42,587 nt of DNA. It comes from Candidatus Kaiserbacteria bacterium RIFCSPHIGHO2_01_FULL_46_22. Its GTDB lineage: Bacteria; Patescibacteriota; Minisyncoccia; Phycocordibacterales; UBA918. The translations under genes and the position numbers were made by a program. The stretch lies in assembly GCA_001779595.1 (NCBI GenBank), contig MFKO01000008.1, positions 5,618-48,204 of the forward strand, given 5' to 3'. Below the pieces are notes generated by a model that ran no database searches, had not been told where the DNA came from, and saw only the letters and a list, made by a program, of their open reading frames with translations. Below are positions 14,828 to 16,555 of the stretch, in pieces. Numbering within the stretch: position 1 is the first letter of the stretch; the number at the start of each line of letters is the position of its first letter.

Positions 14828-15274
14828 ATGACAGATTACGTCAGAAACAAAAAAGTCACTCTCAACTTTGAACTCCTGGACCTATTTGAGGCGGGAGCAG
14901 TTTTACTTGGTACAGAAGTTAAATCGATTCGCCAAGGGCAAGGTAAACTTGATGGTTCGCATGTGGTCGTGCGTGGTGGCGAAGTCTATCTAGTTGGCGC
15001 CTCAATTCCGCCATTTCAAAAAGCCAACGCCCCGACCGATTACGACAACGAACGTGTCCGCAAACTACTGCTTTCTAAGAAAGATATCCTCAAGCTTTAT
15101 AATGAAAGTGAGAAGAAGGGCTTGACAATAGTGCCAATTAGGTGGTACAATACTGGAAGCAAATTGAAGCTCGAAATAGCTGTTGCGAAGGGTAAAAAGA
15201 AACACGATAAACGTGATACCATCAAACAACGCGACACCAAACGCGAGATCGAGAGAACATTGAAAACTCAATAA
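14828..15274 (+). CDS. smpB: SsrA-binding protein SmpB
   Basis: NKK...FEAGAVLLGTEVKSIR, RKLLL, GLTIVP, GKKKHDKR; start ATG 14828 after TGCTATATT; tmRNA nearby. Confidence 0.95.
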   Translation: MTDYVRNKKVTLNFELLDLFEAGAVLLGTEVKSIRQGQGKLDGSHVVVRGGEVYLVGASIPPFQKANAPTDYDNERVRKLLLSKKDILKLYNESEKKGLTIVPIRWYNTGSKLKLEIAVAKGKKKHDKRDTIKQRDTKREIERTLKTQ

Positions 15275-15608
15275 ATTGACTATTCAAAGGTGTGATCATG
15301 GGGACCACATCAAACTGGAGGAATGAAATGCCTAACAAAGACGGGAAGTTAGTCGTTTTCGGAGATGAGTTCGACCCGGCGGTGATCGAGAATCACCCAC
15401 TGGCGTCAAAAAACAGGGTGCGCTTGGCCAAGAACCAGATCGATGCCATTATGGCAGATCTGAATCCTGACCAAATCGCCGAACTTCGCCAAGAGCTCCG
15501 CGACAAGGAGCTCAATGACTGGCTCGAGGTGATCATCACCGTTCACTGAAATGTTCTTCGGCGGACGCATTAGCTAATGCGTCCGCCTCACCTTTGAGTA
15601 GTCAATTT
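15273..15608 (+). other. Inverted-repeat-bracketed mini-cassette 1
   Basis: IR 15273-15292 / 15589-15608 (19/20, one G-T); encloses ORF 15328-15549 and a 28-bp perfect palindrome at 15560-15587. Confidence 0.7.
15328..15549 (+). CDS. Hypothetical protein (73 aa, MPNKDGKLVVFGDEF...)
   Basis: GGAGG SD before ATG 15328; hairpin after the stop. Confidence 0.6.
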   Translation: MPNKDGKLVVFGDEFDPAVIENHPLASKNRVRLAKNQIDAIMADLNPDQIAELRQELRDKELNDWLEVIITVH

Positions 15609-15612
15609 CAAA

Positions 15613-15863
15613 ATGGAAAAATGAAAGGTGTGTTAATGAGAACGCACAGGGAGGGTTGTGATGTCTGAAGATAAAAAAGACAACAACGAACAAGTTAGGT
15701 TTTTAGGTCGCTTAGTTGATCTAAAACAACTGGTTAGTGAAAACTTTTGGTTCATCCGAGTCAGCAACGCAAAAGGAGCGCCAAAAACGCTGATTAACCT
15801 CAAGTACCCAACCATTCGGCGGACAGATCCTTGATCTGTCCGCCATACCTTTCAGTTTTTCAT
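15613..15863 (+). other. Inverted-repeat-bracketed mini-cassette 2
   Basis: IR 15613-15632 / 15844-15863 (17 WC, 2 G-T, 1 mismatch); encloses ORF 15661-15834 and hairpin 15818-15844. Confidence 0.65.
15661..15834 (+). CDS. Hypothetical protein (57 aa, MSEDKKDNNEQVRFLGRLVDL...RRTDP)
   Basis: GGGAGG SD before ATG 15661; below the ORF-track cutoff; stop lies inside the GGCGGAC hairpin. Confidence 0.55.
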   Translation: MSEDKKDNNEQVRFLGRLVDLKQLVSENFWFIRVSNAKGAPKTLINLKYPTIRRTDP

Positions 15864-15908
15864 CCTCTGCACTTCCCCGAATACTTTCAAGCTACTTGAA
15901 AGTATTCG

Positions 15909-16295
15909 GGGGATGACAGGCATCGACGGTTTGCCCGGTTCATCTGCGCAATGCCGAAGTTGAATGGGACTTCGCTAAAACTCATTCATCTGTACGTGCA
16001 AACAAAAGCGTACCAAGCCCGTTTGCATACGGGTTCGCCTTCGCTCGAGCTTAAATTTTAGCTCGCGACTGGCGACGCCGCGTTACCTGACGTTTGATAA
16101 GGTAATGTCGGTGGAATAGCCATCGAACTCTAGATAATTGGTTTGTTCCTCCAATTATCCAAAATGTTAGGAACTGCTCGTCTGAAGGTTTTGCCTACTT
16201 TTCCACTTCAGACGCTAAGATCTAAACTAGGCTATGCATTGTAGACTCAGCTGGATCGACATTCTCGGACGGCGGTTCAATTCCGCCCATCTCCA
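15909..16295 (+). ncRNA. ssrA: tmRNA; predicted tag (A)ANKSVPSPFAYGFAFARA
   Basis: 5' GGGGATG pairs with 3' CATCTCC-A including G3-U; GGCATCGAC D-loop analogue; GGACGGCGGTTCAATTCCGCC T arm; tag frame GCA(15998)...TAA(16054); close to smpB. Confidence 0.93.
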
Positions 16296-16555
16296 CGAGT
16301 ACAAAAATCCGCTCACACATTTGTGTGGGCGATTTTTGTTCGTGGAGATGGAGAAAGCAAACTGCTTTGCTTTCGTGCGGAGTTGAACAGGCGGAGCTAT
16401 GTTTTTCTTCCCTTCCTAGAAGAAAAACGAGCGAGCCGGGCCGGCAAGTACTTATGAACGCAGTGAATTAGTAACTTGGTATGTCAACTCCGCCCATCTC
16501 CACGAGTACAAAAATCCACACGTTACGTGTGGATTTTTTGTTCGTGGAGATGGAG
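16277..16555 (+). repeat. Duplicated and mirrored tmRNA 3' end
   Basis: 34-nt direct repeat 16277-16310 / 16484-16517 (1 mismatch); each copy is followed by a short hairpin and then an antisense copy (16331-16353, 16532-16555). Confidence 0.85.

What the first reader, a model, noticed from the sequence alone, without database searches (positions are those of the whole stretch)
15273..15863. Two tandem mini-ORF cassettes between smpB and tmRNA, each bracketed by its own ~20-bp inverted repeat
Seen: both units follow the plan left arm ending AAAGGTGTG, GGAGG SD, small ORF (73 and 57 aa, no evident similarity), TTCGGCGGAC-x-GTCCGCC hairpin, right arm containing ACCTTT. Unit 1 arms are AAATTGACTATTCAAAGGTG (15273-92) / CACCTTTGAGTAGTCAATTT (15589-608). 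Unit 2 arms are ATGGAAAAATGAAAGGTGTG (15613-32) / CATACCTTTCAGTTTTTCAT (15844-63). The outer arm sequences differ between units yet each pair stays complementary, mostly through G-T on the + strand. The hairpin interiors also differ while remaining paired. The units abut the smpB stop and each other (4-nt gap). Inference: a modular cassette array (captured or excisable units, or long-range RNA stems cut from an smpB-ssrA transcript), or fold-back mRNAs like those of type I toxins. No recombinase is in the window.
Basis: partly seen in the sequence, partly recalled or inferred. Interest (0 to 1): 0.8.

Follow-up and report, generated by a model that had tools for sequence, protein, structure and literature searches.

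The report
Helix-closed small genes before tmRNA
Between the two genes of the ribosome-rescue system of a tiny groundwater bacterium lie two small protein genes, each sitting in the loop of a long RNA stem that related species keep intact through matching mutations on both sides, so the stems most likely mark where this transcript is cut or held shut.

Summary
The window comes from a 647-kb Candidatus Kaiserbacteria-like genome. In 30 of 40 genus members with smpB and tmRNA on one stretch, a helix of at least 16 pairs starts within 30 nt of the smpB stop (0-2 of 40 in shuffles). In 27 of them it encloses 176-456 nt with a small ORF and a GC hairpin that abuts the 3' arm. The helix covaries strongly (88.6% paired against 65% shuffled; 25 of 26 pairs changed on both sides). 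It tolerates G.U but not A.C on the + strand, so it is an RNA structure of the smpB-ssrA transcript. The ORFs are orphan, fast-evolving and under purifying selection. They are not hydrophobic. The motif is not dispersed, and the only integrase-family match lies on another contig. Other families have spacers of 2-145 nt, so the modules are a derived, repeatedly gained and lost insertion. Best reading: modules like rRNA intervening sequences, in the loop of an RNase III-type processing stem. Cleavage itself is inferred, not shown. This is a new variant of a known kind, of moderate to high interest.

The parts
14828..15274 (+). smpB (148 aa from ATG 14828; the ORF is also open from TTG 14810). 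Its stop codon TAA 15272-15274 overlaps the first bases of the unit-1 5' arm.
   Evidence: Pfam SmpB E 6.4e-47; ORF list; sequence
15122..15151 (+). Promoter-like site inside smpB (TTGACA-18-TACAAT with TG). A possible start of a transcript that runs through the modules into tmRNA; a lead only.
   Evidence: 11 of 12. Present in 39 of 40 genus and 10 of 11 order loci. Also in 19 of 33 wider loci without tmRNA downstream against 28 of 38 with it, so it is not specific.
15273..15292 (+). Unit 1, 5' arm of closing helix P1 (extends to 15296 with mismatches)
   Evidence: covariation
15298..15549 (+). ORF1. The upstream in-frame AUG at 15298 gives 83 aa. The AUG at 15328, preceded by GGAGG 15317-15321, gives 73 aa. 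Acidic, orphan, coding.
   Evidence: In-frame indels and 20 invariant residues in 4 sequences. dN/dS 0.19-0.35. The 30/33/33-nt upstream extension stays in frame in three species.
15560..15587 (+). Unit 1 terminal GC hairpin, 1 nt before the 3' arm. It is preceded by a pyrimidine tract (15552-15559) that pairs with GGAGGAA in the MFE fold.
   Evidence: compensatory changes against G068; an abutting hairpin in 33 of 34 units
15589..15608 (+). Unit 1, 3' arm of P1
15613..15632 (+). Unit 2, 5' arm of P1
   Evidence: compensatory G>A / C>U change against G068
15636..15668 (+). 10-codon upstream ORF whose stop overlaps the ORF2 start (ATGTCTGA)
   Evidence: Read. The G068 counterpart has 12 codons. 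Similar leaders are seen in L027 and L058.
15661..15834 (+). ORF2 (57 aa, basic, orphan, coding). Its stop lies at the border of loop and 3' arm of the hairpin.
   Evidence: 48% identity to G068, one 1-residue gap; dN/dS 0.25; no other relative found
15818..15844 (+). Unit 2 terminal GC hairpin; its last base is also the first base of the 3' arm
   Evidence: two compensatory changes against G068
15844..15863 (+). Unit 2, 3' arm of P1
15875..15911 (+). pre-tmRNA leader hairpin (17 bp); its 3' arm ends in the first G residues of tmRNA
   Evidence: 100% complementary; compensatory changes against G068; the same design is seen in other families of the order
15909..16298 (+). tmRNA (ssrA), standard one-piece form
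   Evidence: ARAGORN; Rfam RF00023, 104 bits, E 1e-39

Best explanation
The two units are RNA-level modules of one smpB-(modules)-ssrA transcription unit. In this genus a helix of about 20-29 bp (P1) begins at the smpB stop codon. In most species a small protein gene with its own purine-rich leader and a terminal GC hairpin sits in the loop of that helix. In the window the module is present twice in tandem. P1 has the size and near-perfection of the processing stem that flanks this lineage's own 16S rRNA, and of the terminal stem of 23S rRNA intervening sequences. It is therefore most likely a double-strand cleavage site for RNase III. Cutting it would set the 3' end of the smpB message a few bases past its stop codon. 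It would release each small mRNA with paired, protected ends, and it would free the pre-tmRNA with its leader hairpin for RNase P. Shown: the helix is real, homologous across the genus and selected on the + strand RNA; the ORFs are coding; the modules are confined to this spacer and vary in number. Inferred: co-transcription, RNase III cleavage and its consequences. The function of the two proteins is unknown.
For: Helix: 31 of 40 genus spacers have a long-range stem of at least 19 pairs, against 0-3 of 40 in 20 shuffles. With the 5' arm required to start within 30 nt of the stop, 30 of 40 qualify against 0-2 of 40 in 30 shuffles. On 34 units, 88.6% of cells pair against 65.0% shuffled (0 of 500 shuffles reach it). 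25 of 26 pairs changed on both sides, 174 such cells against 56. The covariation score is 0.572 against 0.191, and slid registers pair at 40-44% (own count). Non-Watson-Crick cells in helix cores are G.U 40, A.C 6, other 10. P1 forms in the MFE fold of all 33 units folded, at 72% or more of its pairs, and in a 1241-nt fold of the whole region. Pairwise compensatory changes between G000 and G068 occur in the unit-2 P1 and in both hairpins. Transcript context: no promoter-like site lies between the smpB stop and tmRNA. In related families the spacer is 2-145 nt (9 of 11; 29 of 38), which leaves little room for a separate ssrA promoter. RNase III: the gene is present. The 16S rRNA of four genus members is flanked by stems of 22/24 to 32/34 pairs. 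The Coxiella 23S intervening sequence is 428 nt, has a 28-bp terminal stem and an internal ORF, and is cut mid-stem by RNase III (PMC4990558, passages read). Coding: dN/dS is 0.19-0.35 (ORF1) and 0.25 (ORF2) against 0.035 for smpB, and ORF1 has in-frame indels. ORF-less helices at the same place (L009, L014, L024) show that the helix stands without the gene.
Against: No RNA ends or expression data exist. The only RNA contigs laid cover tmRNA of a relative, not the modules. When helix ends are extended permissively, G.U against A.C is 52 to 44; the bias appears only in the best-scoring cores, and the units were first found with G.U counted as a pair. The promoter-like site inside smpB is not tied to a downstream tmRNA. 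The promoter scan is a simple consensus scan and could miss a promoter inside a module. A perfect helix could equally act without being cut. The sequence motif kept inside P1 (..AGAAAGGTGGT / ACCACCTTTCT..) hints at a sequence-specific partner that RNase III does not need. 9-10 of 40 genus spacers lack such a helix by either criterion.
Confidence: 0.5

Rival explanations
1. P1 is not cut. It is a closing helix that insulates each inserted gene so that the leader of pre-tmRNA and the 3' end of smpB still fold. It may also act as a switch coupled to ribosome traffic. A ribosome stopping at the smpB stop, which lies inside or next to the 5' arm, or at the ORF2 stop, 9 nt before the 3' arm, must melt P1. 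The helix would then form only on untranslated RNA and would control stability or translation of the small ORF.
For: The 5' arm starts within 6 nt of the first base of the stop codon in 19 of 30 genomes. An AUG with AAGGTG 5 nt upstream lies at the inner end of both window P1 helices. The region before the chosen start is at least half paired in 21 of 33 units. All structured domains are independent and abut one another.
Against: Pairing of the ribosome-binding region with a distal 3' partner is seen in only 14 of 33 units. A near-perfect duplex of 20-29 bp is unlikely to escape RNase III where the enzyme is present (established substrate preference, recalled). Neither point is decisive.
Confidence: 0.25
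2. ORF2, and perhaps other module proteins, is an accessory or backup factor of ribosome rescue whose synthesis is controlled by trans-translation, as for arfA and brfA. The hairpin that holds its stop codon gives a message without a stop codon after cleavage or termination. The protein would then accumulate only when tmRNA-SmpB is limiting.
For: The ORF2 stop codon lies at the loop/3'-arm border of the hairpin in both G000 and G068. The gene lies between smpB and ssrA. The protein is small and basic (57 aa, pI 9.9). The genome shows only two RF-1-domain genes, RF1 and RF2, and no third ArfB-like one. arfA and brfA both have a stem-loop or terminator ahead of the stop codon and are controlled by trans-translation (PMC8012679, passages read).
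Against: No similarity to any family. ORF2 was found only in G000 and G068. Most module ORFs are acidic and stop 25-85 nt before the 3' arm. A 12-bp hairpin is short for RNase III.
Confidence: 0.07
3. DNA-level mobile cassettes: an integron-like array, or miniature transposons with terminal inverted repeats that carry a gene.
For: The number and content of modules differ between species; at least 10 label changes are needed on a 40-tip SmpB tree. The ORF bodies are unalignable between most species while the flanks are homologous. A module of the same build occurs in one other family (L086).
Against: No other copy was found in the genome. 20 of 21 off-locus motif matches in 61 genus genomes were fetched and none has a partner arm (best 14/16). 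The one PF00589 match is on another contig. No target-site duplication is visible (read). Contigs show no empty site. The covariation and the G.U bias point to selection on RNA.
Confidence: 0.04
4. Type I toxin-antitoxin-like loci: fold-back mRNAs that keep a toxic peptide silent until processed.
For: There is 5'-3' long-distance pairing, a local alternative hairpin after the 5' arm, and tandem copies. One second-position unit in another species (L017, 47 aa) is hydrophobic and has its start region inside P1. aapA1 mRNA is silenced by its fold and activated by 3' processing (PMC5416894, abstract read).
Against: ORF1 and ORF2 have no hydrophobic stretch (maximum 19-residue Kyte-Doolittle mean 0.51 and 0.63). 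Only 1 of 33 ORFs looks membrane-spanning. The only minus-strand terminator-like site (15791-15777) is not conserved in G068. The ORFs are longer than typical type I toxins.
Confidence: 0.04

Closest known systems
Intervening sequences (IVS) of 23S rRNA genes, e.g. the 428-nt Coxiella element (PMC4990558, passages read)
   Same: An element of a few hundred nt is inserted in a transcribed stable-RNA unit. It is closed by a 20-28-bp helix made of its terminal inverted repeats, has a small ORF in the loop and occurs sporadically among relatives. The helix is the RNase III site.
   Different: The element lies in the spacer between smpB and ssrA, not inside an rRNA helix. Its ORFs are not of the S23p family (0 of 33 over a Pfam cut-off) and are under purifying selection. 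The modules occur in tandem. RNase III cutting is untested.
RNase III processing stems that flank 16S and 23S rRNA (abstract of PMC6582327 seen in the listing; the stems of this genus)
   Same: Long-range pairing of the 5' and 3' flanks encloses a functional RNA. The stems have the same length class (22-32 bp in this genus).
   Different: What is enclosed is a small mRNA rather than an rRNA. No sequence likeness to the 16S stems was seen.
Fold-back mRNAs of type I toxins (hok/Sok recalled; aapA1/IsoA1, PMC5416894, abstract read)
   Same: Pairing of the 5' and 3' ends of a small-ORF mRNA, a possible metastable 5' hairpin, and dependence on processing.
   Different: The proteins are not hydrophobic, no antisense gene was found, the location is fixed, and hiding of the ribosome-binding site is not general.
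arfA / brfA: rescue-factor genes with a hairpin or terminator ahead of the stop codon (PMC8012679, passages read)
   Same: For ORF2 only: a small gene whose stop codon is buried in a hairpin, with a link by position to trans-translation.
   Different: No sequence likeness, no evidence of truncation, and a very narrow distribution (two species).
Known tmRNA gene forms: standard, group I intron in the T-loop, permuted two-piece with an intervening segment (PMC11915505, passages read)
   Same: Extra sequence that must be removed from a tmRNA precursor.
   Different: Here tmRNA itself is standard. The extra modules lie upstream in the leader and encode proteins.

Membership tests
rRNA intervening sequence (IVS) | Inserted within a 23S (or 16S) rRNA gene helix | tested here: not met
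   The modules lie between the smpB stop (15274) and tmRNA (15909)
rRNA intervening sequence (IVS) | Terminal inverted repeats form a helix of about 20-28 bp that closes the element | tested here: met
   20-29 bp helices, with covariation
rRNA intervening sequence (IVS) | Excised from the precursor by RNase III | not testable with these tools
   The RNase III gene is present; no RNA-end data
rRNA intervening sequence (IVS) | The ORF, when present, belongs to the S23p family | tested here: not met
   Pfam scan: 0 of 33 module ORFs reach any curated cut-off
Type I toxin-antitoxin (hok-like, aapA-like) | Small hydrophobic, membrane-active peptide | tested here: not met
   Maximum 19-residue hydropathy is 0.51 (ORF1) and 0.63 (ORF2); 1 of 33 ORFs exceeds 1.6
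Type I toxin-antitoxin (hok-like, aapA-like) | Antisense RNA gene that overlaps or flanks the toxin mRNA | tested here: inconclusive
   No minus-strand promoter-like site inside the units. One minus-strand terminator-like site is not conserved in G068. The consensus scan is weak.
Type I toxin-antitoxin (hok-like, aapA-like) | A 5'-3' long-distance interaction hides the ribosome-binding site | tested here: inconclusive
   P1 is present in all units. A distal partner for the region before the start is seen in 14 of 33 MFE folds.
Integron gene cassette | attC site at the 3' end of each cassette and an adjacent IntI integrase | tested here: not met
   The repeats bracket the ORF instead. The only PF00589 match is on contig C2.
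Miniature inverted-repeat transposable element | Many dispersed copies with target-site duplications | tested here: not met
   No other copy in the genome. 20 of 21 off-locus motif matches in the genus were fetched and none has a partner arm. No duplication at the ends.
ArfA/BrfA-type rescue factor (ORF2 only) | Stem-loop or terminator at or before the stop codon that gives a message without a stop | tested here: inconclusive
   The stop codon lies at the loop/3'-arm border of the hairpin in two species; truncation was not observed
ArfA/BrfA-type rescue factor (ORF2 only) | Sequence membership in a known rescue-factor family | tested here: not met
   No Pfam family at E up to 1; no meaningful solved relative

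The most novel reading that the evidence does not exclude
The helix at the smpB stop codon is a landing pad in the leader of pre-tmRNA where new small genes are born, duplicated and lost. That would make it an intervening-sequence-like element class outside rRNA that rides one of the cell's most strongly expressed stable-RNA units. Its products would be lineage-specific partners or backups of ribosome rescue. ORF2, with its stop codon buried in the terminal hairpin, would be an alternative rescue factor controlled by tmRNA, in a genome where no ArfB-type gene was found.
Probability: 0.1. Interest if true: 0.85.

Novelty: new variant of a known kind. Interest (0 to 1): 0.6.

Why it matters
It adds a clear, comparative-genomics-grade case of a long-range RNA helix that encloses protein-coding modules inside a stable-RNA operon of the Candidate Phyla Radiation. 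These organisms cannot yet be grown alone, and their RNA processing is almost unknown. If the helix is an RNase III site, intervening-sequence-type elements are not limited to rRNA genes, and tmRNA maturation in this lineage includes the removal of whole mRNAs. The modules also carry purine-rich ribosome-binding-like motifs in a genome that otherwise looks leaderless and whose relatives' 16S tail lacks the CCUCC core. They are therefore a handle on how internal ORFs are translated there. The fast-evolving orphan proteins placed between smpB and ssrA are obvious candidates for lineage-specific factors of ribosome rescue.

Tried and rejected
(1) I first thought the 3' arm mimics the 16S 3' tail and hides a Shine-Dalgarno-like 5' arm. 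I dropped this because the 16S tail in 4 of the 5 genus members examined reads ..GGATTAATTCCAAT without CCUCC, and most ORFs start 35-60 nt after the arm.
(2) Promoter inside smpB as the dedicated ssrA promoter: the motif is nearly universal in the genus but is not linked to a downstream tmRNA in a wider set. It is kept only as a lead.
(3) Expression and empty-site evidence: the run search gave contigs only. Laying four runs showed no joint across a module and no RNA cover of the modules. This is no evidence either way.
(4) Protein function. Pfam: 0 of 33 over a cut-off. PADLOC: one ORF with weak hits only. Word-index search: ORF1 has one relative at 78% and ORF2 has none. Profile search of 1.84 billion representatives: 3 hits, all close. 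The protein atlas gave none and solved structures gave none of meaning. The AlphaFold2 model of ORF1 has pLDDT 54.9, so no fold search was made.
(5) Hidden homology of the module ORFs: 10 of 33 end in His, but the ten do not align convincingly. All-against-all BLASTP links only close kin (5 pairs below 1e-5).
It was replaced by a one-arm pattern read on both strands.
(7) The complex prediction of ORF2 with RF2 could not be queued, so there is no verdict.
(8) A DNA search with the whole spacer found only G004 among 40 relatives, because the ORF bodies diverge too fast. A protein-pattern scan with ORF1 found nothing in the genome collection.
(9) Earlier findings of this scan were not open.
Full report
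WHAT IS THERE. The window holds smpB (14828-15274, Pfam SmpB E 6.4e-47) and, 634 nt downstream on the same strand, a standard tmRNA gene (15909-16296/8). There are two tandem units, each with a 20-nt 5' arm, a purine-rich motif, a small ORF, a perfect GC hairpin and a 20-nt 3' arm. The hairpin pattern occurs twice in the window and never in 100 shuffles. Each unit folds with its long-range stem in the minimum-energy structure, with z-scores of -6.97 and -5.19. Both stems, both hairpins and a 17-bp tmRNA leader hairpin survive in a fold of the whole 1241-nt region. The genome is 647 kb in 8 contigs with 46% G+C. Its nearest named relatives are Candidatus Kaiserbacteria and Patescibacteria assemblies (record titles). 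Groundwater and soil metagenome runs hold the stretch.

IT IS A GENUS-WIDE, COVARYING RNA HELIX.
- SmpB was found in 52 of 61 genus genomes. In 40 of the 51 genomes whose locus I read, tmRNA lies downstream on the same strand within the stretch held, at 67 to 1278 nt.
- 31 of these 40 spacers hold a long-range stem of at least 19 pairs (G.U allowed, at most 2 mismatches), against 0-3 of 40 in 20 shuffles. Leaving out stems that touch tmRNA gives 34 units in 30 genomes.
- With the 5' arm required to start within 30 nt of the smpB stop, 30 of 40 spacers qualify against 0-2 of 40 in 30 shuffles. 27 of them enclose 176-456 nt and 3 are plain hairpins without an ORF (L009, L014, L024).
- The arms are homologous (consensus about ATTTGGWTACAGAAAGGTGGT / ACCACCTTTCTGTAWCCAAAT) yet differ in nearly every column while staying paired.
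- On the 34-unit alignment, 88.6% of cells pair against 65.0% after shuffling (0 of 500 shuffles reach it). 25 of 26 pairs changed on both sides, with 174 such cells against 56. The covariation score is 0.572 against 0.191, and all slid registers pair at 40-44% (my own count).
- In the best-scoring helix cores the non-Watson-Crick cells are G.U 40, A.C 6 and other 10. That is what selection on the + strand RNA predicts, and not what decay of a DNA repeat predicts. With ends extended permissively the counts are 52 against 44, so the bias holds for the cores only. The units were first detected with G.U allowed.
- Between G000 and its closest relative G068 (SmpB 93% identical; synonymous sites near saturation), the unit-2 helix, both terminal hairpins and the tmRNA leader hairpin show pairwise compensatory changes.

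ANATOMY OF A MODULE (34 units).
- The 5' arm starts within 6 nt of the first base of the stop codon in 19 of 30 genomes, and within 24 nt in 26.
- The ORFs have 38-117 aa, and 33 of 34 units have an ATG-started one.
- A stable hairpin abuts the 3' arm in 33 of 34 units.
- P1 forms in the MFE fold of all 33 units folded, with at least 72% of its pairs.
- Hiding of the region before the start codon is not general: it is at least half paired in 21 of 33 units, and paired with a distal 3' partner in 14 of 33.

THE ORFS. ORF1 has orthologues in G068 and G004 and one metagenomic relative, with in-frame indels. A profile search of 1.84 billion representatives found only 3 proteins. ORF2 has an orthologue only in G068. 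dN/dS is 0.19-0.35 for ORF1 and 0.25 for ORF2 against 0.035 for smpB. Both are therefore coding but evolve about ten times faster than SmpB at the protein level. Among the 33 module ORFs only close kin are alike, and none reaches a Pfam cut-off. 25 are net acidic and one looks membrane-spanning. The AlphaFold2 model of ORF1 is unreliable (pLDDT 54.9).

WHERE IT OCCURS AND WHERE NOT. In G000 the pattern is unique. A 12-nt arm motif gave 31 matches in 61 genus genomes against 12 for the reversed control. 10 of the matches lie in smpB-ssrA spacers. Of the 21 others I fetched 20, and none has a partner arm (best 14/16). The one PF00589 match is on another contig. In other families of the order the spacer is 7-98 nt in 9 of 11 computed cases. 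One other family (L086) has a full module and one (L093) has a long spacer without a stem. In a wider set, 29 of 38 spacers are 2-145 nt, and stems were found only in the two genus members and in one AT-rich Bdellovibrionales spacer. On a SmpB tree of the 40 genomes, the label none/one/two modules needs at least 10 changes. That tree rests on 144 columns, and 'none' includes L040, whose helix is 18/19 pairs, and the ORF-less L009. The helix is thus old in the genus, and its cargo is repeatedly gained, duplicated and lost.

HOW IT MOST LIKELY WORKS. No promoter-like site lies between the smpB stop and tmRNA. In relatives the spacer is too short for one. The leader hairpin that ends in the first G residues of tmRNA is conserved order-wide. 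I therefore take smpB, the modules and ssrA as one transcription unit (inferred). A promoter-like site inside smpB (15122-15151) may add transcripts, but it is not specific to loci with a downstream tmRNA. The genome encodes RNase III. The 16S rRNA of four genus members is flanked by stems of 22/24 to 32/34 pairs, the classical RNase III sites (abstract of PMC6582327 seen in the listing). P1 has the same dimensions. The closest described element is the 23S rRNA intervening sequence. The Coxiella one is 428 nt, has a 28-bp terminal stem and an internal ORF, and is cut mid-stem by RNase III (PMC4990558, passages read). I therefore propose that P1 is cut by RNase III. This would trim the smpB message close to its stop codon, release each small mRNA with paired ends, and leave pre-tmRNA with its leader hairpin for RNase P. 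My estimates: the helix is a selected RNA structure, about 0.95; the ORFs are translated genes, about 0.85; the helix is an RNase III site, about 0.5-0.6. The main rival (0.25) is a helix that is not cut but insulates the insert, or couples its folding to ribosomes that stop at the smpB and ORF2 stop codons. DNA-level cassettes and type I toxin loci are each unlikely (0.04).

WHAT REMAINS ODD.
- Module ORFs carry GGAG-type motifs (GGAG in 14 of 33; any of three tetramers in 23 of 33). Only 31 of 489 long ORFs of G000 do, against about 20 expected by chance. Many G000 genes instead have a -10-like hexamer 4-9 nt before the ATG. The 16S tail of relatives lacks the CCUCC core (the canonical core is recalled).
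- The ORF2 stop codon lies in its hairpin in both species. This recalls arfA and brfA (PMC8012679, passages read). G000 shows only RF1 and RF2 and no third RF-1-domain gene.
- Ten of 33 ORFs end in His without alignable bodies.

NOVELTY. Searches of the held library listed no paper on protein-coding modules closed by long-range stems between smpB and ssrA. The 2025 tmRNA database paper names three gene forms (standard, intron, permuted) and no upstream modules (PMC11915505, passages read). Insertions in rRNA genes of the Candidate Phyla Radiation are described as mostly group-I-intron-like with homing endonucleases (PMC11270868, abstract read). Subscription journals and supplements were not searched. 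I rate it a new variant of a known kind: intervening-sequence or processing-stem logic in a new place, with coding cargo under selection.

Noticed in passing
L062-L065 (16S rRNA loci of G019, G054, G068, G004); whole G000: The 16S 3' tail reads ..GGATTAATTCCAAT, without the CCUCC anti-Shine-Dalgarno core (4 of 5 loci; L066 differs). In G000, GGAG lies before only 31 of 489 long ORFs, while -10-like hexamers end 4-9 nt before many ATGs. The lineage therefore looks largely leaderless and free of Shine-Dalgarno sites.
   Followed up: partly
window 15122-15151: A near-consensus promoter-like site (TTGACA-18-TACAAT with TG) lies inside smpB, built on the Leu-Thr and Tyr-Asn codons. It is present in 39 of 40 genus loci, and also in many Patescibacteria without a downstream tmRNA.
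   Followed up: yes
window 15875-15911; L069, L079, L083, L094, L033, L049: A 15-20-bp hairpin in the pre-tmRNA leader has a 3' arm that ends in the first G residues of tmRNA, so the 5' acceptor strand is hidden. It shows compensatory changes between G000 and G068 and recurs across the order.
   Followed up: partly
window 16275-16298, 16340-16351, 16377-16388, 16484-16500: The tmRNA 3' trailer holds an intrinsic terminator (16310-16331). It also holds a split inverted copy of the last 24 nt of tmRNA, which tracks the tmRNA sequence in G004, and a partial direct copy about 190 nt downstream. This could be a processing stem or the remnant of an integration site.
   Followed up: partly
L062-L065: 16S rRNA of the genus is flanked by a long-range stem of 22/24 to 32/34 pairs (..CTTTTGTCTTATCCTTT.. 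/ ..AAAGGATAAGACAAAAG..), the expected RNase III processing stem.
   Followed up: yes
L120-L195 and L069-L094: In many Patescibacteria tmRNA starts only 2-25 nt after the smpB stop codon. RNase P cleavage of a co-transcript would then leave smpB mRNA almost without a 3' UTR, which could be a feedback loop through trans-translation.
   Followed up: no
L017:2565-2777 (G073, second unit): A second-position unit encodes a 47-aa peptide with one hydrophobic helix, and its start region lies inside the closing helix. This one does resemble a type I toxin mRNA.
   Followed up: no
L009 (G045), L014 (G072), L024 (G024), first 70 nt after the smpB stop: Helices of 19-24 bp without an ORF stand at the place where other species have the module helix. 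L009 keeps the arm motif and a mini-hairpin in its loop, like an emptied module.
   Followed up: partly
L197 (G000:C2, RF1 gene): The RF1 reading frame holds a short masked stretch (XXXX in the translation). RF2 (C1) is unbroken and carries the SPF motif.
   Followed up: no
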